A stretch of 64,000 nt of DNA. It comes from Justusliebigvirus VEcB. Positions 13,607 to 56,327 of this stretch are shown here, in pieces. Numbering within the stretch: position 1 is the stretch's first letter; each line of letters begins with the position of its first letter. The notes below the pieces were generated by a model. The model did no database searches. It was not told the origin of the DNA and saw nothing but the letters and a program-made list of their open reading frames with translations. Location of the stretch: sequence record OZ035773.1; one strand, written 5' to 3'. The translations under genes were made by a program, and so were the position numbers.

Positions 13607-14734
13607 ATGAAATACACGATTTATGGTGATATTGTAAGTGTAAATAAAGATATGGGCGTGGAATCTAACTATCTTCCACCTGGATTCTATACTGTTAGTC
13701 GTGATCCCCTTGGCAATTACTTTTTAAGCCGTGGTAATCTAACAGGTGTACCGGATGTTCTGTATGGTGAAACAGAAAAACGAGCAAATCACGTTATTCG
13801 TACATTCCATCGCCGGAGTGCACAAGGTAAAAACACAGGCTTGCTTCTGACAGGAACTAAGGGTAGTGGTAAAACTATGTTAGCCAAACTCATTAGTCGT
13901 GACCTTGTAGAAGAAGGTATTCCAACTATTATGGTTACTCAAGCCTACAGTGATGCTAATTTCATTGAACTTATTAGCAAGATCACAGACAAAGCAGTGA
14001 TTATTTTTGATGAATTTGATAAAGTATATGAGAAGAAACAAGATCAAGAAGCACTTCTCACTTTGTTAGATGGTACTGGCAGTGGTAATAAACTGTTTAT
14101 TCTAACTAAAAACAGTGGCTTTATCTCTGAATTCTTTCTAAATCGTCCTAGTCGTGTGTTTTATAATTTTAATTATGATAAAATCTCACTAGAAACTATG
14201 ATTGACTATTTAGATAAAAACCTGGATAACAAAGCACACTTTGATAATTTCCAAAGGCTTTGGGATGTAAGTTTAGAGTTGTCCTTTGATGTGATCCAAG
14301 GTATAGTAGAAGAACTTAATTTCTACCCTGATTTATCCTTTAAAGAATGCATCTCTATGATGGGCGTTTCTTTGGGTGGTGGTAATAAGTGGGATATCAG
14401 CAGCGTTGTTATTAATGGGAAACTTCAGAAAGTTAGCTGGGTATCTAGTTGGCATAACTTCACACCTGCAATCTTTTTAGGTGGCTCGTGCACACTAGAC
14501 GTGTACTTGTCATCTCCAAGTGATGCAGATTCTAAAGAAGCCCTTGCTAATAGCTCTTACGTGGTTTTTGATGATGAAGGAGATGCTCGAATTCCATTGA
14601 ATGCGACAAAAATGAAAGCAGATCTTATTACAGGCGGTAAAATCGTTGTGTTTAGTGATGATCCAGAAGATTCTTTCCGTATTGTTCTGGAACCAACTAT
14701 CACCAATGGTGCAACTTTGGCAAGCGTGTTTTAA
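13607..14734 (+). CDS. AAA+/P-loop ATPase (DnaC/IstB-like core)
   Basis: Walker A LLLTGTKGSGKTMLAK, Walker B VIIFDEFDK; SD AAAGGGGG. Confidence 0.65.
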   Translation: MKYTIYGDIVSVNKDMGVESNYLPPGFYTVSRDPLGNYFLSRGNLTGVPDVLYGETEKRANHVIRTFHRRSAQGKNTGLLLTGTKGSGKTMLAKLISRDLVEEGIPTIMVTQAYSDANFIELISKITDKAVIIFDEFDKVYEKKQDQEALLTLLDGTGSGNKLFILTKNSGFISEFFLNRPSRVFYNFNYDKISLETMIDYLDKNLDNKAHFDNFQRLWDVSLELSFDVIQGIVEELNFYPDLSFKECISMMGVSLGGGNKWDISSVVINGKLQKVSWVSSWHNFTPAIFLGGSCTLDVYLSSPSDADSKEALANSSYVVFDDEGDARIPLNATKMKADLITGGKIVVFSDDPEDSFRIVLEPTITNGATLASVF

Positions 14735-14748
14735 GTAAGCCAGCAAAT

Positions 14749-14775
14749 AAAAACCCGCTCCGGCGGGTTTTCTTG
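14749..14775 (+). terminator. rho-independent terminator
   Basis: AAACCCGC-tccg-GCGGGTTT followed by TCTTG. Confidence 0.6.
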
Positions 14776-14808: not shown

Positions 14809-15981
14809 ATGACAGCACCAAAATCATGGGAACAATATAAAGAAGAATTAACACCCCTTGCTAAAAATCGCAATATTCAAATCCTGGGTTATGTTGGTGA
14901 ATGGAAAGGGAACAAGACTAAACTTAAGCTATCTTGCCCTAAACATGGAGAGTGGAACACCACGAACATTAATGATTTTAAGAAGGGACGTGGTTGTCCT
15001 ATCTGTTCTGGTAAGAAGCCGTTAACATGGGAAACAGAATTGCCGATCTTGGAAGAGATAGCACAGAAGAGGGGGTATCAGGTGTTAGGGTACGTGGGAG
15101 AATGGAAAGGGAATAAAACAAAACTTGATTTGTTGTGTCATTGTGGTAATAAATGGGATACTACAAGTATTAACAATTTTAAACGTGGTAGCGGTTGTCC
15201 ACAATGTAAGAGGGAGAGACAAACAATGTCCGACGATCAACATATTGCAGATTTCTTTTCTACAGGGGAATTTAAGGAAGGCACTATCTTCACCAATACA
15301 GGGAAACGTAACAAGCGTGATGCAGTATGGATGGTTGAGTGTCCTGTTTGCTCCCATGATGAATATGTTCAAGCAGGTGTTTGTGATGGTAAATTTTACT
15401 CTGCAGGACATAACCTTAAACAAGGGTATATTCCGTGTCGTTGTGGGAACTATCAGTATACAGAAGACCAGATCACCTATAGGGTAAAAAAGGAAGTAGA
15501 AGGGAAAGGGTATGTCTGGGTAGATTGGATTACCAAACCATCTTCTATAGGTAAGTTTAAATATCTTTGTCTTGTGCATGGGGAGCAGATAGGGAGTGCT
15601 CGTAATTTATTAAGCCTCGGTCAAGGTTGTCCACAGTGTGCTGGTCATAGTCAGCAGCAATTGTATGTTAATGTTGTTAAAGATAATGGTATTATAGTTG
15701 CTCTTAAGTTTGGTATATCTAAAGATAGCGATAGACGATTAAACGGTCAAAATAGCCGTAATCTGTTTTTTATGGAGCGTATTTGTTTATATGATTTTAG
15801 CACAGTGAAACAATGTAGGGCTGCTGAAAGAGCTATAAAGAAAAAATTAAAAACTGGTATTTTAACGGCAAGAGAGTTGAAAGATGGTTATACAGAAACA
15901 GTAAGTGTTTCTGATTTGGAAAATCTTCAAAAAATTATTACACAATATGGTGGCAAATTAGTATACAGTAAGGAGGTGTAA
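14809..15981 (+). CDS. zinc-ribbon repeat protein with C-terminal GIY-YIG-like (T5orf172-type) domain; putative nuclease
   Basis: Four repeats of C-x-x-(C/H)...G-x-G-C-P-x-C; C-terminus LYVNVV...KFGIS.D..RL...AERAIKKKL resembles T5orf172/GIY-YIG; SD AAGAGGAG. Confidence 0.5.
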   Translation: MTAPKSWEQYKEELTPLAKNRNIQILGYVGEWKGNKTKLKLSCPKHGEWNTTNINDFKKGRGCPICSGKKPLTWETELPILEEIAQKRGYQVLGYVGEWKGNKTKLDLLCHCGNKWDTTSINNFKRGSGCPQCKRERQTMSDDQHIADFFSTGEFKEGTIFTNTGKRNKRDAVWMVECPVCSHDEYVQAGVCDGKFYSAGHNLKQGYIPCRCGNYQYTEDQITYRVKKEVEGKGYVWVDWITKPSSIGKFKYLCLVHGEQIGSARNLLSLGQGCPQCAGHSQQQLYVNVVKDNGIIVALKFGISKDSDRRLNGQNSRNLFFMERICLYDFSTVKQCRAAERAIKKKLKTGILTARELKDGYTETVSVSDLENLQKIITQYGGKLVYSKEV

Positions 15982-16533
15982 ATGCGGATTACTGATAAGT
16001 ATGTGTTCTTCTTCTCGGCAAAAGATGAATTTAGCAACTGGTATCTATCATCTTTTATTGAACCTTTAGCTCCCAAGTATAATAATTCTATTACAAGTTC
16101 TGTTGAATTTACTTGTGTGGAACAATATATGATGTGGAGAAAAGCATGTTTGTTTTATGATTACAACATTGCATCTTCTATTTTAACCGGAGATCTAAGA
16201 TATACAGGAGAAAAAGAACAGGCATATTATAAGCGACTAGGTAGATTAGTTAAAGATTACGATGAAGCTACTTGGACTTCTTTACGGGAGAAGATTGTCA
16301 AGCGTGGTTTGTATCTTAAATACACACAAAATGAAGATCTCAAAAATAAACTTATAGCTTACGCAGATAAGGAGTTTGTAGAAGCAAGCCCTTATGATTC
16401 TATTTATGGTATCAAAATTGGGATGTGGGATCGGGACGTGGAAAATAAGGATTGTTGGAAAGGACAAAATCTTTTAGGAAAATGGCATACAGACCTTGCT
16501 GTTTATCTAAAAGCACAATCTGATATTTCCTGA
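15982..16533 (+). CDS. NADAR (YbiA-like, DUF1768) domain protein
   Basis: FFFSAKDEFSNWYLS...EQYMMWRKA...KRLGRLV...ASPYDSIYGIKIG...WKGQNLLGK match NADAR signature blocks; SD AGGAGGTG. Confidence 0.65.
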   Translation: MRITDKYVFFFSAKDEFSNWYLSSFIEPLAPKYNNSITSSVEFTCVEQYMMWRKACLFYDYNIASSILTGDLRYTGEKEQAYYKRLGRLVKDYDEATWTSLREKIVKRGLYLKYTQNEDLKNKLIAYADKEFVEASPYDSIYGIKIGMWDRDVENKDCWKGQNLLGKWHTDLAVYLKAQSDIS

Positions 16534-16752
16534 TATTTTGAAAATTTTTATTTTTATAAAAAGGGGTGTGGGTTTCATGTACGGAAATTCACCCTCTGCA
16601 CAGTATACCCAGAGTAAGTATTATTCTATACTCTGTTAATAAAGTATTTAATTTGTTTGTTGGACTATGGTATCTGATCTTTAAAAGGCATACTATCTCT
16701 TAACTACTACTTATAACAGAACAGTAAAATCATTTTTATAAAAAGTACAAAA

Positions 16753-16949
16753 TTATTTAAAGTTTTTACAGATTTTTGGGTACAAATTTTGAAAATGAAA
16801 AGTTCAAGTTTGGTCAAAATTATTTAAAGTTTTTGTACGTATTTCTATCCAGATTTTGAAAATGAAAACTTCAATTTTTTAAAAATTCCCCAGTTTATTT
16901 AAAGTTTTTTTGCCTTTTTCCGTAGAAAAATCAAAAATGAAAAGTTCAA
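16753..16949. repeat. three tandem ~67-75-bp direct repeats (each with TTATTTAAAGTTTTT and TTGAAAATGAAAAGTTCAA)
   Basis: Both sub-motifs recur three times at ~67- and ~75-bp spacing. Confidence 0.6.
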
Positions 16950-16972
16950 TTTCGTGTTTTTATAGGTGTGTT

Positions 16973-17084
16973 AATGAGAATCATTTTCGTTTGTAAATGA
17001 GAATCATTATCATTTAATTATGTAAGTGATAATCATTCTCAGTAAGAGAATGAGAATCATTAGCAAATGAGAATTTTTCTCATT
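16973..17084. promoter_or_regulatory. cluster of five Fur-box-like palindromes (AATGAGAATCATT variants)
   Basis: Sites at ~16973, 16996, 17027, 17049, 17066; closest match TGAGAATCATTATCA vs Fur 7-1-7 core TGATAATnATTATCA. Confidence 0.4.
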
Positions 17085-17346
17085 TAGAGAATAACGCGCA
17101 GGGGTGGTGTTTGTCTCGCGCTCCCGTGTCCCCTCGCCATACAATAAGAATAGCATAACCAACAACAAAAGCAAGCGATTATTTTTATCTTTACATTTCT
17201 TTACAAATTTATTTTAGACGAGCCACCGGCGATCAACCTTCCAACCAGTGCCCCCTGGTATGTTAGCCCCGCCTTTACGCCGTGGGGGTGGCGTTTCCTC
17301 TTCTGTATGTAAAACAGTATAAGCCCGATCCCTGGGCTTGTCAAGA

Positions 17347-17613
17347 TTATTTTTTGTTTTCTTGCCAGGATAGGACACCTAACCAAAAATACATGTCGCC
17401 CCGCGCCCCTGGCGGGATCTTGCTTTCCCCGCCGCCACTGCAAGCCCATAGATAACCATTAGCGAACGGATCAAAATGATCTATTTCTTCCACCTTATGA
17501 TCGCCCAGGTTGAGAACGGTTTCAACCTTTAAGCCCGTTGCGCTTGCTACCTGGTGCACCGTGCCGCCTTGCCAGCCTAATGAGTGCATGAGGTGTAGAG
17601 TAGGATTTGTCAT
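17347..17613 (-). CDS. hypothetical protein (88 aa) in GC-rich islet
   Basis: Track ORF; SD AAAGGGCGA; local GC content far above the rest of the window; coding status uncertain. Confidence 0.3.
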   Translation of the reverse strand: MTNPTLHLMHSLGWQGGTVHQVASATGLKVETVLNLGDHKVEEIDHFDPFANGYLWACSGGGESKIPPGARGDMYFWLGVLSWQENKK

Positions 17614-17724
17614 GGTATCGCCCTTTCTTTGATGTGCGCCCTGGTTGGCGCGGTAGAAAGATAATAGCCCTTTCCTTTATAGATAGCAAGCAAAAAAGAA
17701 ATGAAAAAAAGATTAAAAAAGGGG

Positions 17725-17753
17725 TTGACGTTCCTCACCTGGTAGCGTATTAT
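17725..17753 (+). promoter_or_regulatory. sigma70-like promoter
   Basis: TTGACG, 17 nt spacer, TATTAT; ~120-nt GC-rich leader before peptide ORF. Confidence 0.45.
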
Positions 17754-17880
17754 TCATCTTGTCGAGGGGGGCGAGGCACAACGACAATAAACAAAAGGAG
17801 GGCGCAATGTAGGACGGGCAAAGGTGAGGATCTCCACAATCCACCGTCACAATAACATTACTTATAAAAGGTTGATAACG

Positions 17881-26827: not shown

Positions 26828-26968
26828 ATGAACAACCATACCATGAAGATCATAAGGCGTTTACAGCGTGTTTTAGACCGTTTATTTTTAATTTCTTCAT
26901 GCAACTATAGGACAAAAACAGTCTTTTTCTTGTCTTTCCTCTTAAATGATAATCATTCTTATTTATAG
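26828..26968 (+). CDS. possible small ORF (46 aa) reading into a Fur-box-like site
   Basis: Hand-translated MNNHTMKIIRRLQRVLDRLFLISSCNYRTKTVFFLSFLLNDNHSYL; SD AAGGAG 3 nt upstream; speculative. Confidence 0.25.
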   Translation: MNNHTMKIIRRLQRVLDRLFLISSCNYRTKTVFFLSFLLNDNHSYL

Positions 26969-27015
26969 CTGATTATTTATGCAATAAACTGCATAATGCA
27001 ATAATGATAATCATT
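26945..27015. promoter_or_regulatory. two Fur-box-like palindromes (AATGATAATCATT)
   Basis: Sites at ~26945-26957 and ~27003-27015; second reads ATAATGATAATCATTCTTA vs Fur consensus GATAATGATAATCATTATC. Confidence 0.45.
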
Positions 27016-27926: not shown

Positions 27927-27942
27927 AATGATAATCATTATC
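27927..27942. promoter_or_regulatory. Fur-box-like palindrome, best match
   Basis: GCAAATGATAATCATTATC matches Fur consensus GATAATGATAATCATTATC at 17 of 19 positions; overlaps a possible promoter upstream of small ORF 28006. Confidence 0.45.
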
Positions 27943-28110: not shown

Positions 28111-28140
28111 ATGATAATGCAAATGATAATTATTCTCATT
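28109..28140. promoter_or_regulatory. composite Fur-box-like site (overlapping GATAAT hexamers)
   Basis: GAATGATAATGCAAATGATAATTATTCTCATT. Confidence 0.4.
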
Positions 28141-40863: not shown

Positions 40864-41676
40864 TTATTTAGTCAAATGATCTTCTATCATTTTTATGAAA
40901 GCAGGATTGCTAAAAGCATCTGCGGCCTTTTCTCGATAAACAAAAACTCCTCTATCTTCGTAAAGAAGAGTTTCTTCGTAATTAATTCCTGGGTTAACAA
41001 CAATCATTTTTGTACCCATACTAAGTGCAGGGAATAATTCCCAATTAAAATTGATAACTTGGTTTGAACATCCTACTACAACAACCAAATCTTGCATGGT
41101 CAAAGTATCAAACAAGTGATCCATATCTGCATACAAAGGTGCAGCCTCACCAAAAAATACAACATTAGGCTTCACCCAGTTATAATCATCTATGTTTATA
41201 CTATTGTAACCAATGTCTACCAGTGTTTTGTAATCTCCAGGATGCATACGGTAAACTACTTCAGGAAGATATCCGTGCACGTGGATAACAGAATCCCTGT
41301 CTACACCTGCTCGCTCTAGTAGATCATCAACGTTTGTTGTCAAGTTTACTACTTGGTTAGGATATTCCTTAAACCACTTTGCTATTTGAATATGTGCAGC
41401 ATTAGGTTGTACATCTTTAAGCTCAACACGTCTTTTGTTATAAAATTCGTGTGTTTTGGCATACAAATCCATACCGTTTTCGTCTACACCACCAACCACT
41501 GGAAGATCTGGTGATGTTCTCACACGATAACCTGCTTGGAAAGCTCCAATATCGCAGATCTCTTCTAAATCCCATTCTTCCCATAGGGCACGACCACTAT
41601 CTGTGTCTGTTCGGAATGTTCGAATCCCACTGTCTGCACTTAAACCAGCTCCACTAACAAAAATTACTCTTCGCAT
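40864..41676 (-). CDS. Sir2 (sirtuin)-family protein lacking the zinc-ribbon module
   Basis: Sirtuin motifs GAGLSADSGIRTFR, TTNVDDL, VIHVHG, VVFFGE, VVVVGCS; no CxxC...CxxC pair; SD AAGAGGA. Confidence 0.7.
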   Translation of the reverse strand: MRRVIFVSGAGLSADSGIRTFRTDTDSGRALWEEWDLEEICDIGAFQAGYRVRTSPDLPVVGGVDENGMDLYAKTHEFYNKRRVELKDVQPNAAHIQIAKWFKEYPNQVVNLTTNVDDLLERAGVDRDSVIHVHGYLPEVVYRMHPGDYKTLVDIGYNSINIDDYNWVKPNVVFFGEAAPLYADMDHLFDTLTMQDLVVVVGCSNQVINFNWELFPALSMGTKMIVVNPGINYEETLLYEDRGVFVYREKAADAFSNPAFIKMIEDHLTK

Positions 41677-43004: not shown

Positions 43005-43994
43005 CTATTCCTCCATACATTTAAGAATATGTGCAATGACAGGTATAGTCCAACCGTTACCTAACATCTTATATGCTTGTGTGTTACTACTCACTTTAAA
43101 GTAATCATCTGGCACACCTTGCAAACGGCAACACTCTTTAACGGTTAACTTTCTATAATGTACGCCTTCACTCAATTTTTCAAAAGCATCTAAATATCTT
43201 CCAGGTGGAATGTAAGCTAATAGTACGTCTTTCGGCACAGTCGTGAGGCAACGAGTTTTTTCACTATCCTGAACTTCCAAACAATGTACCAAACGATCAG
43301 TTTTAGATGTACTACGTTTGCCATTCTCATTAATTCTACGCCCATATATTGCTGCTGGATAAAAAACCAGTTGTCTGCGACTCTTTTCAAAATACTGTTC
43401 TATATTACCACCTTTGGCATAATTTGCATCTATGCAATAAGCCTTATCTCTGTCTACAATACTATCATCTTCAATGATATCTTGCAACACTTCATTGGTA
43501 ATATCCCAAGGTTTTATTTCCCAGTTGCACCAGTATAAACGTTGTCTATTCTGTGCTGTGAAATCTGCGGAGTTAATGAATACGGGATCAACACCTAAGT
43601 AACTTGTGATCACGTTTTCCCACTCCACTTTCATCTTAACGTTTTCAAGCATGAACTTAACATTAGGGTTAAACTTTTTAATATGTTCAAGAATCTCAAC
43701 ATATTCGAAGAATAGCTTAGATCGCGGATCTTGAAAGTTCAAACCTTTACCGGAAGAAGAGAAGCCTTGACACGGACTACCACCTAACAAAAGATCAATT
43801 TCTCCCCACGGGATATCCCATTCTCTCCATTTTGTAACATCACCTAACTGAATAATATCTGGAAAATTTGCTTGGCTTTCAGCTATGGCAAATTTGTCTA
43901 ATTCTGAAGCATAATATGTATCTACTTCAATACCTGCACTTTTTAGCGCAAGCATTCCTCCTGACATACCATCAAAAAGACTTAAAATTTTCAT
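43005..43994 (-). CDS. DNA (cytosine-5)-methyltransferase (Dcm-type)
   Basis: Motif I LFDGMSGG, motif IV GSPCQGFS, motif VI ENV, motif VIII QNRQR, motif X GNGW; strong SD TAAGGAGAAG. Confidence 0.8.
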   Translation of the reverse strand: MKILSLFDGMSGGMLALKSAGIEVDTYYASELDKFAIAESQANFPDIIQLGDVTKWREWDIPWGEIDLLLGGSPCQGFSSSGKGLNFQDPRSKLFFEYVEILEHIKKFNPNVKFMLENVKMKVEWENVITSYLGVDPVFINSADFTAQNRQRLYWCNWEIKPWDITNEVLQDIIEDDSIVDRDKAYCIDANYAKGGNIEQYFEKSRRQLVFYPAAIYGRRINENGKRSTSKTDRLVHCLEVQDSEKTRCLTTVPKDVLLAYIPPGRYLDAFEKLSEGVHYRKLTVKECCRLQGVPDDYFKVSSNTQAYKMLGNGWTIPVIAHILKCMEE

Positions 43995-48034: not shown

Positions 48035-48697
48035 TTATTTAATATTCAATTTTGCACAAAGACGTTGTACCGCTTTGGCATCGAACAAACTCCCACGAAT
48101 AGTTCTCTTTCCTGATTCATTCAGATGCTTTGCAATCGTCATATATGGCGTTTTACAAGCTCTGTATGCAACTAAAGAATCTTTTAAAGAAAGCGCAAAC
48201 TCTCTTGAGCGTTTTGCTTCTTCCGTTTTCGTATAGTCTGTTCTTTTGTATTTAGGGTTTGCTGCACCAAGAAGCGTTCCCTTCGCTTTTGCTACCTTAA
48301 GGCTCTTCTTAACACGATCAGATATTGCACGAGCCTCTTCTTCTGCCAGAACTGCTAAAATATTTATTATCATATTTTCAGCGGAGGGCATAGTTGCTAT
48401 TCGTACATTAATCATCTCTAACAAGGTTGCAACAGAAGCTGTGTTACGTCCAAGACGGTCAACCTTAGCAACAACAAGTGTAGCACCTGTTTCTTTGCAA
48501 AGATTAACAGCTTTTACAAGCTCTCTACGTTGCTTCCAATCGCCTTTACCCGAATAAAACTCTGCAAAGCTACCTATAATAGTATAATTTTCTTGTGAAT
48601 CCAGGAAGCGTTGAATATCTGCTTCCTGTGATTCTATACCATACTGGTTGCCTTGTTGTTTCTTCTTAGAAAGTCGATGATATAGTACAAACTTCAT
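48035..48697 (-). CDS. serine recombinase (resolvase/invertase family)
   Basis: Catalytic region LYHRLSKKKQ (Ser), VAKVDRLGRN, LAEEEARAISDRVKKSL; C-terminal HTH-like segment; SD AGGAGGG. Confidence 0.75.
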   Translation of the reverse strand: MKFVLYHRLSKKKQQGNQYGIESQEADIQRFLDSQENYTIIGSFAEFYSGKGDWKQRRELVKAVNLCKETGATLVVAKVDRLGRNTASVATLLEMINVRIATMPSAENMIINILAVLAEEEARAISDRVKKSLKVAKAKGTLLGAANPKYKRTDYTKTEEAKRSREFALSLKDSLVAYRACKTPYMTIAKHLNESGKRTIRGSLFDAKAVQRLCAKLNIK

Positions 48698-53065: not shown

Positions 53066-53896
53066 TCACTCCTTGTTTAAAAGTATAGTTAAAGTTCTTA
53101 CAATACCGCTATCAACACTTCGCGGATTTAAAGTAGGATCTGTTTTTAAATAAGATGTTGCTGGTCTGACTGCTTTGGAATTATAGGTTGAAGCAGACAC
53201 AGGATTAACTGTAACAGATAAATCTATAACAAGAAATATCTTACGTGCAAAATCATACCAAGAAATATAATCTGCACCTGCATAGTGTACAATTTTACTA
53301 TTTACACCATCTTTTACAAGTTTAAAAATTGTTTCTGCAAGATCAGGTGCATAAGTAGGACATGACAAATGATCACATACTACATTAAATTCTTTTTGAC
53401 CACCGTTGTAGCGTTCCAACATAGTTTTCAAAAAGTTATGTCCAAATTCACTATAAACAGAAGCTGTTCTGATAATAAGTGCTGTAGGACAAACTGTTTG
53501 TACTAAAGTTTCACCTAATTGTTTACTGTAACCGTAGGTGTTCAAGGGGTTTGTTTTACTATCTTCTGTGCCAGCAACATGCCCATCAAAAACATAGTCT
53601 GTTGAAATATGTACAAACTGTATCAGTAAATCATTACATGCTTTGGCAATGTTTGTTGCACCGTATGCATTAACATTTATACAGGTGTTAACATCTTCTT
53701 CAGCTTTATCTACTGCCGTGTAAGCCGCACAATTCACAACAACATCAGGCACATGCTGTACAAGACTATTCATAACATCTTTAAAGTTGGTAATGTCTAC
53801 ATCACTTGCTTCAATCAAAATAACATCTTCGGGCGCAACTTTTGCCAAAGACTGTCCTAATTGACCTTTTGAACCAAAGATTAAAAATTTTGTCAA
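53066..53896 (-). CDS. rmlD: dTDP-4-dehydrorhamnose reductase
   Basis: N-terminal FLIFGSKGQLGQSL Rossmann motif, ~276 aa, last gene of rml operon. Confidence 0.75.
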   Translation of the reverse strand: MTKFLIFGSKGQLGQSLAKVAPEDVILIEASDVDITNFKDVMNSLVQHVPDVVVNCAAYTAVDKAEEDVNTCINVNAYGATNIAKACNDLLIQFVHISTDYVFDGHVAGTEDSKTNPLNTYGYSKQLGETLVQTVCPTALIIRTASVYSEFGHNFLKTMLERYNGGQKEFNVVCDHLSCPTYAPDLAETIFKLVKDGVNSKIVHYAGADYISWYDFARKIFLVIDLSVTVNPVSASTYNSKAVRPATSYLKTDPTLNPRSVDSGIVRTLTILLNKE

Positions 53897-54447
53897 AATA
53901 TGATCTCCTTTAGTGTTTTGGCTTGCTGATCTTTTTGTGACAAGATAGGTTTAAAATTAATATCATTAAAGATTAAATCAAAACCCCAATCAATATTGAT
54001 ATCTGGATCATTCCACGCAAGACTACACTCTGAAGTCGGATCGTAATATTCTGTACATTTATATTCAAAATCAGCAATGTCACTAATCACAACAAAGCCA
54101 TGAGCGAAACCAGGAGGAATCCAAAATTGTGTTTTATTCTTTTCAGATAAGAGAACACCTACCCATTCTCCAAATGTTGGACTACCAACTCTAATATCCA
54201 CAGCAACATCATAAACTTCACCACGAACACAACGTACTAACTTCCCTTGTGGGTTTTTCTTTTGAAAATGAAGCCCACGTAGAACTCCTCGGATAGAACG
54301 TGAATGGTTATCTTGGACAAAGTTTTGTTTACCTATGTATTGATCATATAAAGCCTGATTAAAACTTTCTAAGAAAAAACCACGTTCATCTCCGTAAACG
54401 TCTGGTTGAATGATCAACAAATCTTCGATTTTTGTTGCTTGAATCAT
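53893..54447 (-). CDS. rmlC: dTDP-4-dehydrorhamnose 3,5-epimerase
   Basis: IRGVLRGLHFQ..., FWIPPGFAHGF cupin motifs typical of RmlC; 184 aa. Confidence 0.8.
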   Translation of the reverse strand: MIQATKIEDLLIIQPDVYGDERGFFLESFNQALYDQYIGKQNFVQDNHSRSIRGVLRGLHFQKKNPQGKLVRCVRGEVYDVAVDIRVGSPTFGEWVGVLLSEKNKTQFWIPPGFAHGFVVISDIADFEYKCTEYYDPTSECSLAWNDPDINIDWGFDLIFNDINFKPILSQKDQQAKTLKEIIF

Positions 54448-54459
54448 TTAATCTCCCCT

Positions 54460-55329
54460 TTATTTTAATTTAAGTAAATACTTGCCGTAGTCTGTTTTAC
54501 TTAAAACCTCTCCAGAACTTTTTACAGAATCTAAAGTAATCCATTCATTTTTAAAAGCAATCTCTTCTAGGCATGCAACCTTCATACCTTGTTGCTTTTC
54601 TATTGCATGAACAAATTGAGATGCTTCCATAAGACTTTCATGTGTTCCTGTATCCAGCCAAGTGAAACCTCTTCCTAGCTTACAGACACGTAAAGCCTTT
54701 TCTTTCCAGTACATCTCATTTATATCTGTGATCTCTAACTCTCCTCTAGCAGAAGGCTTAACGCTTTTAGCTTTCTGTATAACAGAATTATCGTAAAAGT
54801 ACAAGCCTGTAATTGCATAGTTGCTTTTTGGTGCTTTTGGTTTTTCTTCAATACTTACCACTGTACCTTCAGAATCAAACTCAACAACACCAAATCTTTC
54901 AGGATCATTTACGTGATACCCAAAAATATTAGCTCCACCATTCTTTTCAATATGTTCTTTAGCAGAATCTAAAATGCTACCAAAACTCTGACCAAAGAAT
55001 AAATTATCACCTAGCACAAGTGCTACAGAATCTTCACCAATAAAGTTCTCACCAATAATAAACGCTTCTGCTAAACCTTTTGGGCTATCCTGTATTGCAT
55101 ACTGTAGGGAAATACCAAAAGAAGAACCGTCACCTAGAAGATTTACAAAATTAATTTGATCTTCTGGTGTTGTAATTATTAGTATTTCCCTAATTCCAGA
55201 AAGCATTAGGACAGAGAGTGGATAATAAATCATAGGTTTATCGTAAATTGGTAATAGTTGTTTACTAACCCCTTTAGTAACTGGGTAAAGTCTTGTTCCA
55301 CTACCACCTGCTAAGATAATACCTTTCAT
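54460..55329 (-). CDS. rmlA: glucose-1-phosphate thymidylyltransferase
   Basis: [35 protein letters not shown] signature; 289 aa. Confidence 0.85.
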
Positions 55330-55337
55330 ACTCCTCC

Positions 55338-56327
55338 TTAAACTTTATTTTCCCACCACTCTTTGTTATCTACATACCAATCAATGGTTGAATAAAGTTT
55401 TTCTTCAAATGTGCCTTTAGCTTTCCACCCTAATTCCTTTTCAATCTTATAAGGATTCACTTCATATCTTAGATCATGCCCAGGCCTATCTGTAACCATC
55501 TCAATGAGGCTACAAGCATCTGTTTCAGATGGATATACCGCATCCATATAATCACAAATCATATAGATTACATCAATATTAGTTCTAGGGTTTCTGCTCC
55601 CAATATTATATGTTTCTCCAGATTTGCCTTTAGTTACTACTAGGTGTAATGCTTCTGCGTGATCGTCAACGTATAGCCAGTCTCTTACTTGAAGACCATT
55701 GCCATAAACAGGGATTGGTTTATTCATTAAGATATTTGTTATCGTCTTAGGTATTAGTTTTTCTGGATGATGATACGCTCCAAAATTATTTGAACAATTT
55801 GTTATAACTGTCGGAATACCATAAGTACGATGCCACGCTCTTACCAAATGATCGCTTGCAGCTTTAGATGCGGCATATGGACTACTTGGTTTATAAGGAT
55901 TCTGTTCTGTAAACGGATAATCCCCTTCTTCCATATCACCATACACTTCATCTGTTGAAATATGATGAAACATTTTAAGATTTGATTTATCTCCCATTAA
56001 ACGAACAGCTTCTAGAAGATTAAATGTTCCAACGATATTTGAATTTATAAAAACACTCGGTGATGCTATTGAATTATCTACGTGACTTTCTGCTGCAAGA
56101 TGCATTATATAATCTGGGTTAACATCTGCCACAATCTTAGCAGTTAACTGAGCATTTGTCAAGTCAACACGACAAAACTTTACATTAGGTGTTTCTGATA
56201 AATTTCTAGGGTCTGAAGCGTAACCCCATTTATCTATAACGTAAATATCATTCTTAGTATTTTTAGCCAGGAAACGAACTACTGCACTTCCAATAAAACC
56301 TAAACCACCTGTTACTAAGTATTTCAT
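55338..56327 (-). CDS. rmlB: dTDP-glucose 4,6-dehydratase
   Basis: [28 protein letters not shown] (YxxxK SDR catalytic motif); 329 aa. Confidence 0.85.

What the first reader, a model, noticed from the sequence alone, without database searches (positions are those of the whole stretch)
15982..16533. Phage-encoded NADAR-domain protein
Clear NADAR signature blocks. NADAR enzymes have been linked to removal of ADP-ribose from guanine and to NAD metabolism, so a phage copy is a plausible anti-DarT or anti-ADP-ribosylation factor.
Basis: partly seen in the sequence, partly recalled or inferred. Interest (0 to 1): 0.6.

Follow-up and report, generated by a model that had tools for sequence, protein, structure and literature searches.

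The report
Known phage anti-DarT1 NADAR enzyme (AdfN)

Summary
The ORF at 15982–16533 (+, 183 aa) is real and is a clear NADAR-domain protein. Pfam PF08719 scores 125 bits against a cut-off of 35. The AlphaFold model (pLDDT 96) matches only the two solved NADAR structures that Foldseek found. Eleven of the 13 ADP-ribose-contact residues of the Phytophthora NADAR:ADPr structure are identical and two are conservative. These include E47, K54, E134 and K84.

The window is a Justusliebigvirus (Stephanstirmvirinae) E. coli myophage. Its NADAR is 181/183 identical to those of BASEL phages Bas61 and Bas62, and 179/183 identical to that of Bas60. Johannesman et al. (Nat Commun 2025) named that protein AdfN^Bas60. 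They showed that it neutralises DarT1 toxicity in E. coli and rescues three DarTG1-sensitive phages, but does not counter DarTG2.

Three things remain untested for this clade:
- in-vitro enzymology and catalytic mutants;
- deletion of the gene in the native phage;
- whether its Glu-type active site also removes cytidine-ADP-ribose, as in other Glu-type NADARs.

Verdict: an ordinary member of a known counter-defence class, of low interest.

The parts
15982..16533 (+). CDS of a stand-alone NADAR-domain protein (183 aa plus stop), the orthologue of AdfN^Bas60
   Evidence: ORF. Pfam NADAR E=3e-36. 181/183 identical to Bas62 and Bas61, and 179/183 to Bas60. AF2 pLDDT 96.4. Foldseek gives 8bau TM 0.78 and YbiA TM 0.67.
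15971..15976 (+). Shine-Dalgarno AGGAGG, 5 nt before the ATG and lying inside the end of the upstream ORF (translational coupling is likely)
   Evidence: Read directly from the sequence. The upstream stop TAA at 15979-15981 abuts the ATG at 15982.
16120..16143 (+). Codons for the E47...K54 motif (E47 at 16120-16122, K54 at 16141-16143), equivalent to PnNADAR E43/K50, E. coli C7 DarG1 E88/K95 and T4 AdfN E36/K43
   Evidence: 8bau alignment and script mapping. Invariant in 63 homologues. The T4 equivalence comes from hhalign. Residue roles come from PMC11543638 and PMC11825919.
16231..16233 (+). Codon for K84, equivalent to PnNADAR K75 and E. coli C7 NADAR K115. That lysine is dispensable in vitro but required to rescue cells from DarT1.
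   Evidence: Mapping. Invariant in the homologue alignment. Role from PMC11543638.
16381..16383 (+). Codon for E134, the catalytic acid at the PnNADAR E125 / SCO5665 E167 position. It is Glu-type, not the Asp of DarG1 or the His of T4-type AdfN.
   Evidence: Mapping. Invariant in the homologue alignment. Role from PMC11543638 and PMC12945103.
14809..15981 (+). Upstream, probably co-transcribed gene with three CapR zinc-ribbon repeats plus a T5orf172 domain (annotated 'endonuclease' in PHROGs). This is context only; no functional link to the NADAR is shown.
   Evidence: Pfam CapR E=3e-43 in 3 stretches and T5orf172. PHROG 681. Syntenic in Phapecoctavirus ESCO13 at 38% identity. No such gene was seen next to the NADAR in Seunavirus or Kayvirus.
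14750..14771 (+). Terminator-like hairpin between the AAA ATPase gene and the CapR/NADAR gene pair
   Evidence: Pattern scan: 9-bp stem with 5 GC pairs. A terminator is annotated at the same place in phage Paula.

Best explanation
The gene encodes an orphan, antitoxin-like NADAR ADP-ribosylglycohydrolase of the AdfN class (anti-DarT factor NADAR). When the phage infects an E. coli cell carrying the DarTG1 toxin-antitoxin defence, DarT1 uses NAD+ to attach ADP-ribose to the N2 of guanines in phage DNA, which blocks replication. The phage NADAR binds the ADP-ribosyl-guanine. K54, R88, W98, R102, D139 and Y142 hold the pyrophosphate. Y93 stacks on the adenine. E47 and E134 position the distal ribose. 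The enzyme hydrolyses the guanine-N2 to ribose-C1'' bond, restoring normal guanine so that replication proceeds. It needs no other phage factor. It does not reverse thymidine ADP-ribosylation by DarT2.

Shown experimentally, for a 98-99% identical orthologue: DarT1 neutralisation, rescue of heterologous phages, and no effect on DarTG2.

Shown here: family membership, fold, a complete active site, near-identity to the tested protein, and orphan status.

Inferred: the hydrolytic mechanism for this clade, since only T4 AdfN was purified, and the claim that this is the gene's main role in its own phage.
For: NADAR membership is shown. Eleven of the 13 ADPr-contact residues of PnNADAR are identical and 2 are conservative, including the lysine needed for in-vivo DarT1 rescue. 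The same residues are invariant across 63 homologues. The protein is 179-181/183 identical to the Bas60, Bas61 and Bas62 NADARs. The four variable positions (62, 96, 146, 178) are neither contact residues nor conserved columns. [quoted passage not shown] No DarT/ART or other ADPr-related gene lies within about 10 kb. There is only one NADAR in the window. It is therefore a stand-alone 'orphan'.
Against: For the Bas60-type protein, the paper's main text reports only ectopic-expression assays. Only AdfN^T4 and its K43A mutant were purified, so a non-catalytic mode is not formally excluded. No deletion in Bas60-62 or any Justusliebigvirus was found, nor any report of how these phages plate on DarTG1. 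I could not see the paper's Table S3. That AdfN^Bas60 equals bas60_0111 is therefore inferred: it is the NADAR these genomes are annotated with, and the only one found in this window. The closest relatives in jumbo-phage-like contigs sit beside NAD-salvage genes, which hints that the family may have other uses.
Confidence: 0.88

Rival explanations
1. Broad-spectrum base de-ADP-ribosylase. Because it is a Glu-type NADAR (E134), it removes ADP-ribose from cytidine as well as guanine, in both DNA and RNA. It would then protect the phage against several ART-based defences or toxins, with DarT1 as only one target. This extends the best explanation rather than excluding it.
For: In PMC12945103, NADAR-family and YbiA-family enzymes with Glu at this position removed C-ADPr and G-ADPr from ssDNA and ssRNA. 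DarG1 (Asp) and T4 NADAR (His) removed only G-ADPr. All tested NADAR families remove G-ADPr from RNA (PMC11833690). The window protein has Glu at that position and is closest to the PnNADAR-type family.
Against: No Bas60-type phage NADAR was tested on C-ADPr or on RNA (one search found no mention of Bas60 or AdfN). No cytidine-modifying anti-phage ART is known in E. coli. In that paper the Glu correlation is a tendency across a handful of enzymes, and E167D abolished all activity rather than switching specificity.
Confidence: 0.4
2. NAD/ADP-ribose metabolite processing. The enzyme acts on free NAD-derived or ADPr-derived small molecules and supports NAD+ homeostasis during infection, for example against NAD-depleting defences.
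For: In two jumbo-phage-like metagenomic contigs, homologues of about 42% identity lie directly downstream of a cytidylyltransferase-like (NMNAT-type) gene, or about 4 kb from a NAMPT-family gene. The window also carries a phage SIR2-family gene, though 24 kb away.
Against: No NAD-salvage gene lies near the NADAR in this window, in ESCO13, in Seunavirus or in Kayvirus. Apart from one with no Pfam match, the ORFs of 300 aa or more in the window are accounted for by other families. The tested orthologue acts on DarT1-caused damage.
Confidence: 0.08
3. YbiA-like housekeeping N-glycosidase that destroys reactive riboflavin-pathway intermediates. This is how several GenBank records label the gene.
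For: TIGR02464 'riboflavin biosynthesis intermediates N-glycosidase' is matched above its cut-off (108.9 against 73.7 bits). The BASEL records annotate it as 'putative YbiA-like N-glycosidase'.
Against: It is much closer to PnNADAR than to E. coli YbiA in sequence (E=2.5e-12 against 0.035) and in fold (TM 0.78 against 0.67). The authors place AdfN^Bas60 with non-YbiA, non-DarG1 bacterial NADARs. No riboflavin genes are nearby; the 'GTP cyclohydrolase II' labels on homologues probably reflect the old ribA/ribD-fusion naming (my inference). A lytic phage has no evident need for this function.
Confidence: 0.04
4. Non-enzymatic inhibitor of a different defence system, by analogy with the phage NADAR-like protein reported to inhibit Retron-Eco1 without needing catalysis.
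For: [quoted passage not shown] 2024, Retron-Eco1) that does not need enzymatic activity.
Against: I did not read that paper, and what I believe about its source phage rests on my recollection. Here every catalytic and ligand-contact residue is under strict conservation, which argues for an active enzyme.
Confidence: 0.04

Closest known systems
AdfN^Bas60 (anti-DarT factor NADAR of BASEL phages Bas60/61/62; Johannesman et al., Nat Commun 2025, PMC11825919)
   Same: Same genus (Justusliebigvirus), same genomic position after the ATPase and the CapR/T5orf172 gene, same length (183 aa), and 179-181/183 identical residues. It is effectively the same protein.
   Different: There are two to four substitutions (N62S, A96D/T, I146M, A178T), none at contact or conserved positions. 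The window's own allele has not itself been tested.
AdfN^T4 (T4 gp30.3), the founding phage anti-DarT1 NADAR
   Same: Stand-alone phage NADAR with the same E...K motif (T4 E36/K43 align with E47/K54). It has the same biological role against DarTG1 and the same lack of effect on DarTG2.
   Different: No BLASTP-detectable similarity (E=2.1). T4-type has His where this protein has Glu (E134). AdfN^T4 works fully only during T-even infection and cannot neutralise DarT1 in uninfected cells, whereas the Bas60 type can. The acquisition is independent.
Phytophthora nicotianae NADAR (PDB 8BAU) and the 'NADAR family' sensu Schuller et al. 2023 (e.g. S. coelicolor SCO5665, E. coli sigma70-linked NADAR)
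   Same: Best sequence match (E=2.5e-12) and best structural match (TM 0.78) in the PDB. It has the Glu-type catalytic residue, and 11 of 13 ADPr-contact residues are identical.
   Different: Only 28% identity. Those are cellular proteins, whereas this one is phage-borne. It also has an insertion of about 10-15 residues between the first strands (around residues 26-40) that is gapped against 8bau.
DarG1, the NADAR antitoxin of DarTG1 (E. coli C7, Geobacter/Trichlorobacter lovleyi)
   Same: Same fold superfamily and same chemistry (guanine-ADPr hydrolysis). It shares the lysine (K84 = EcC7 K115) needed for in-vivo rescue.
   Different: No adjacent DarT1. There is no N-terminal extension: the Pfam domain starts at residue 13 of 183. 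It has Glu rather than the DarG1-type Asp two residues upstream; that position is F132 in the translated sequence. No solved structure other than 8bau and YbiA gave a significant Foldseek match.
E. coli YbiA (PDB 2B3W)
   Same: NADAR fold (TM 0.67), a Glu-type active site, and a match to TIGR02464.
   Different: Only weak, partial sequence similarity (E=0.035 over residues 85-143). YbiA did not protect cells from DarT1 (PMC11125620), whereas AdfN^Bas60 does.

Membership tests
NADAR superfamily (Pfam PF08719 / DUF1768) | Profile-HMM score above the curated threshold over most of the domain | tested here: met
   125.5 bits against GA 35.1, profile positions 9-154 of 163. TIGR02464 scores 108.9 against 73.7.
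NADAR superfamily (Pfam PF08719 / DUF1768) | Alpha-helical NADAR core fold | tested here: met
   AF2 pLDDT 96.4 and pTM 0.90. The only significant PDB matches are 8bau (E=4e-9, TM 0.78) and YbiA 2b3w (E=4e-5, TM 0.67).
NADAR superfamily (Pfam PF08719 / DUF1768) | Conserved Ser / Glu / Lys core residues and a catalytic acid at the PnNADAR E125 position | tested here: met
   S18, E47, K54 and E134 are invariant in 63 homologues. E47, K54 and E134 map to PnNADAR E43, K50 and E125. The equivalence of S18 with the conserved Ser is my inference from that invariance.
AdfN functional class (phage orphan NADAR that counters DarTG1) | Encoded by a lytic phage as a stand-alone NADAR without a cognate DarT toxin | tested here: met
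   Justusliebigvirus genome. Neighbours are an AAA ATPase, a CapR/T5orf172 protein and small ORFs without ART domains. It is the single NADAR in the window.
AdfN functional class (phage orphan NADAR that counters DarTG1) | Neutralises DarT1 toxicity and/or restores phage growth on DarTG1 hosts | not testable with these tools
   Published for the 98-99% identical AdfN^Bas60 by ectopic expression (PMC11825919). Not done for this allele or by deletion in the native phage.
AdfN functional class (phage orphan NADAR that counters DarTG1) | Hydrolyses guanine-linked ADP-ribose on DNA in vitro, dependent on catalytic residues | not testable with these tools
   Shown for AdfN^T4 only. For this clade it is inferred from the full conservation of contact residues.
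T4-type AdfN / 'phage NADAR' family sensu de Souza & Aravind and Schuller et al. | Sequence relatedness to gp30.3, with His replacing the catalytic Glu | tested here: not met
   BLASTP E=2.1. hhalign probability 24%. The position is Glu (E134), not His. It is not a member of this clade although it does the same job.
DarG1 antitoxin NADAR | Operonic DarT1 partner, N-terminal extension, and catalytic Asp (EcC7 D171) two residues before the aligned Glu | tested here: not met
   No DarT nearby. The domain starts at residue 13. The residue two before E134 is F132 (sequence).
YbiA-type riboflavin-intermediate N-glycosidase | Closest relationship to E. coli YbiA or the plant RibA/RibD-fused domains, and a riboflavin-pathway context | tested here: inconclusive
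   TIGR02464 is matched above its cut-off. However, the YbiA match is weak (E=0.035) compared with PnNADAR (2.5e-12), and there is no rib gene context. Enzymatic activity on riboflavin intermediates is not testable here.
DS-32 NADAR anti-phage (defence) protein, NCBIfam NF053876 | Score above the equivalog cut-off | tested here: not met
   25.7 bits against a cut-off of 240.

The most novel reading that the evidence does not exclude
This Glu-type phage NADAR is a general eraser of base-linked ADP-ribose: guanine and cytidine, in both DNA and RNA. Unlike the guanine-only T4 AdfN and DarG1, it would shield Justusliebigvirus and the many related large phages that carry homologues (Phapecoctavirus, Vequintavirinae, and staphylococcal, listerial and enterococcal Herelleviridae) against a wider and partly undiscovered set of nucleic-acid ADP-ribosylating defences.
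Probability: 0.35. Interest if true: 0.4.

Novelty: already known. Interest (0 to 1): 0.15.

Why it matters
The finding adds little that is new. It correctly re-identifies a counter-defence gene whose function was published in 2025 for a near-identical protein. Its practical value is in annotation. Most GenBank records for this gene say 'hypothetical protein', 'YbiA-like N-glycosidase' or even 'GTP cyclohydrolase II' on more distant homologues, and could be relabelled as an AdfN-type anti-DarT1 NADAR. The tblastn survey gives 724 phage records, including 233 Staphylococcus phage records (Kayvirus among them) and 54 Listeria phage records. It suggests that NADAR-based reversal of DNA ADP-ribosylation may be common in large therapeutic-type phages, which matters for predicting host range on DarTG1-carrying strains.

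Tried and rejected
1. T4-type AdfN membership: rejected (BLASTP E=2.1; weak hhalign).

2. Conserved gene partner.
- The ATPase, then CapR/T5orf172, then NADAR order is syntenic only within Stephanstirmvirinae.
- I guessed from ORF lengths that Seunavirus SalP219 had the same 145-aa and ATPase neighbours. BLASTP shows they are unrelated, so that idea is rejected.
- The Kayvirus context is also different.

3. Accelerated evolution of the NADAR relative to its neighbours: not seen. Against ESCO13, the NADAR is 56% identical, the ATPase 64% and the CapR protein 38%.

4. tRNA or Rfam RNA in the ORF-poor stretch downstream: none found.

5. A second NADAR or a DarT/ART-like gene in the window: none found.

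6. Confirming the accession of AdfN^Bas60 from the paper's Table S3: supplementary files are not held.

7. Native-phage evidence for Bas60-62 on DarTG1: none found.

8. An intrinsic terminator directly after the gene: the scan found none between 16534 and 17268.

Full report
**Observation.** The window has an ATG-initiated ORF of 183 codons at 15982..16533 on the + strand, exactly as reported. An AGGAGG ribosome-binding site lies five bases upstream, and the ATG directly follows the TAA stop of the preceding gene. The product matches Pfam NADAR (PF08719) at E=3.1e-36, with 125.5 bits against a gathering threshold of 35.1, over nearly the whole domain. It matches NCBIfam TIGR02464 above its cut-off and PHROG 1017 at E=2e-49. 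A six-frame search of the whole window, using an HMM built from 63 homologues, finds this ORF alone: E=2.8e-66, with the next hit at E=0.07. The 'clear NADAR signature' is therefore real.

**Source genome.** The 6 kb around the gene is 98.8% identical to Escherichia phage Paula and 95-98% identical to about 50 further genomes. The records inspected are classified as Stephanstirmvirinae, genus Justusliebigvirus. Three of these are BASEL collection phages: Bas60 (PaulScherrer), Bas61 (EmilieFrey) and Bas62 (JohannJBalmer). In them the orthologous gene is annotated 'putative YbiA-like N-glycosidase'. The window protein is 181/183 identical to the Bas62 and Bas61 proteins and 179/183 identical to the Bas60 protein. 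The differences are at positions 62, 96, 146 and 178.

**What is already known.** Johannesman, Awasthi, Carlson and LeRoux (Nat Commun 2025, PMC11825919) found that T4 gp30.3 is an anti-DarT factor NADAR (AdfN).
- When expressed from a plasmid, that protein neutralised DarT1 toxicity in uninfected E. coli. It restored full titre of RB69, T5 and Bas25 on DarTG1 hosts. It did nothing against DarTG2, which modifies thymidine.
- They placed it with non-DarT-associated, non-YbiA bacterial NADARs and concluded that it was acquired independently of the T4 type.
- I could not open the supplementary accession table. The equation with bas60_0111 rests on that gene being the annotated NADAR in these genomes and on there being a single NADAR in this window.

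**Independent checks of the active site.** Schuller et al. 2023 (PMC11543638) list the ADP-ribose contacts in the Phytophthora NADAR:ADPr structure 8BAU as E43, K50, K75, G78, R79, V81, Y84, D86, W89, R93, E125, D130 and W133. Mutagenesis of E. coli C7 DarG1 showed that the equivalents of E43, K50 and E125 matter for catalysis. It also showed that the K75 equivalent (K115) is needed for rescue in cells.
- phmmer aligns the window protein to 8bau at E=2.5e-12.
- A script mapped the residues, after confirming that chain numbering is offset by +2. The result is E47, K54, K84, G87, R88, V90, Y93, W98, R102, E134 and D139 identical, with D86→E95 and W133→Y142 conservative.
- In an alignment of 63 homologues of 34-61% identity, E47, K54, K84, G87, W98, E134 and D139 are invariant, and R88 and V90 are nearly so.

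**Fold.** An AlphaFold2 model built on that alignment is very confident (pLDDT 96.4, pTM 0.90). Against the PDB it matches only 8bau (E=4e-9, TM 0.78) and E. coli YbiA (E=4e-5, TM 0.67).

**Which kind of NADAR.**
- It is not the T4 type. BLASTP to gp30.3 gives E=2.1. A profile comparison is weak, although it aligns T4 E36/K43 with E47/K54. T4-type proteins have His where this one has Glu.
- It is not DarG1-like. There is no N-terminal extension, no adjacent DarT, and F132 stands where DarG1 has its catalytic Asp.
- It is far closer to PnNADAR than to YbiA.
- It is therefore a Glu-type member of the 'NADAR family' in the sense of Schuller et al.
- That matters for one open point. A 2026 study (PMC12945103) found that Glu-type NADAR and YbiA enzymes remove ADP-ribose from cytidine as well as guanine in DNA and RNA, whereas DarG1 and T4 NADAR remove it only from guanine. 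No Bas60-type protein was tested there. Dual specificity is the most novel reading that the evidence leaves open.

**Context.**
- The gene is the last in a rightward cluster that starts after a divergent region near 12 kb. The cluster runs: small ORFs, an AAA ATPase (13607-14734), a terminator-like hairpin (14750-14771), a CapR-repeat/T5orf172 protein (14809-15981), then the NADAR.
- The same order occurs in Phapecoctavirus ESCO13, with two extra small ORFs. Divergence there is similar for the NADAR (56%) and the ATPase (64%). That indicates vertical inheritance in the subfamily rather than recent transfer or unusually fast evolution.
- In Seunavirus and Kayvirus the neighbours are unrelated. 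No conserved partner is apparent, in keeping with the published finding that AdfN^Bas60 acts alone.
- No ART, macrodomain or NAD-salvage gene was found near it.

**Distribution.** tblastn finds homologues in 724 phage records.
- 55 are at 95% identity or more; those listed are Justusliebigvirus-type phages.
- Phapecoctavirus-type phages such as ESCO13 have homologues at about 56-59%.
- Salmonella and Klebsiella phages (one checked is Vequintavirinae) and many Staphylococcus (233), Listeria, Enterococcus and Bacillus myophages have homologues at about 34-43%.
- Metagenomic relatives on contigs of 310 and 455 kb also look phage-borne. They sit by NMNAT-like or NAMPT-like genes. This keeps a minor NAD-metabolism rival alive for the wider family, but not for this locus.

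**What remains unproven for this protein.** Only AdfN^T4 was purified and mutated, and only T4 adfN has been shown to be conditionally essential on DarTG1 in the native phage. For the Bas60 clade, the hydrolytic mechanism and the native requirement are inferences, though strong ones.

**Verdict.** The novelty is nil, because it is a near-identical allele of a published, functionally tested counter-defence protein. Interest is low (0.15). The residual interest lies in the untested cytidine/RNA specificity and in correcting database annotation.

Noticed in passing
window 16973-17084 (also 26945-26963, 27003-27015, 27927-27939, 28122-28140): A tight cluster of eight matches (2 mismatches or fewer, both strands) to AATGAGAATCATT lies just downstream of the NADAR gene. 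From memory, the unit resembles the E. coli Fur-box consensus GATAATGATAATCATTATC. The window has 21 matches against 5.1 +/- 2.5 in shuffles, with further AATGATAATCATT sites around 27-28 kb. They could be Fur-binding or other regulator-binding sites, or iterons.
   Followed up: partly
window 16732-16952: Three direct repeats of about 67-79 nt (TTATTTAAAGTTTTT ... TTTTGAAAATGAAAAGTTCAA) lie in a very AT-rich stretch (GC about 0.23). A repeat_region is annotated somewhere under the 6-kb match in phages inny and alia. This may be an origin-like or regulatory array.
   Followed up: partly
window 16877-17754: This largely non-coding stretch is 85% identical at the DNA level to Phapecoctavirus ESCO13, whereas the adjacent NADAR gene is only 56% identical at the protein level and barely detectable by blastn. 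It includes a GC-rich island (GC 0.48-0.50 against 0.23-0.33 in the flanks). The island carries an 88-aa minus-strand ORF (17347..17613) with no Pfam match, plus several terminator-like hairpins. No Rfam family or tRNA was found. It is a conserved element of unknown nature.
   Followed up: partly
window 14809-15981: The gene translationally coupled to the NADAR encodes three CapR zinc-ribbon repeats plus a T5orf172 domain. Its orthologues are 325 aa (Bas61), 390 aa (Bas62 and this window), 467 aa (Bas60) and 486 aa (ESCO13). These steps are close to one 67-residue CapR unit, and ESCO13 shows repeated internal matches, which suggests repeat copy-number variation.
   Followed up: partly
window 40864-41676 (- strand): A phage-encoded SIR2-family protein (PF02146, E=1.7e-22). 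It is an NAD-dependent enzyme in the same genome as the NADAR, but 24 kb away. No functional link was examined.
   Followed up: no
window 43005-43994, 48035-48697, 53066-56327 (all - strand): A Dcm-type C5 cytosine DNA methyltransferase, a serine recombinase/resolvase-domain protein, and an RmlD-RmlA-RmlB set (dTDP-sugar biosynthesis, with one unscanned ORF in between). These are possible anti-restriction or DNA/surface-modification functions.
   Followed up: no
L009 3026-4477 and L011 4001-8480 (metagenomic contigs of 455 kb and 310 kb): NADAR homologues of about 42% identity occur in jumbo-phage-like contigs. One is immediately downstream of a cytidylyltransferase-like (NMNAT-type) gene, and the other is near a NAMPT-family gene and a nucleoside 2-deoxyribosyltransferase-like gene. 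This is a recurrent NADAR / NAD-salvage association outside this window.
   Followed up: partly
literature versus GenBank taxonomy: Johannesman et al. call Bas60-62 'Vequintavirinae', whereas the GenBank records classify them as Stephanstirmvirinae, Justusliebigvirus. This is a naming discrepancy only.
   Followed up: yes
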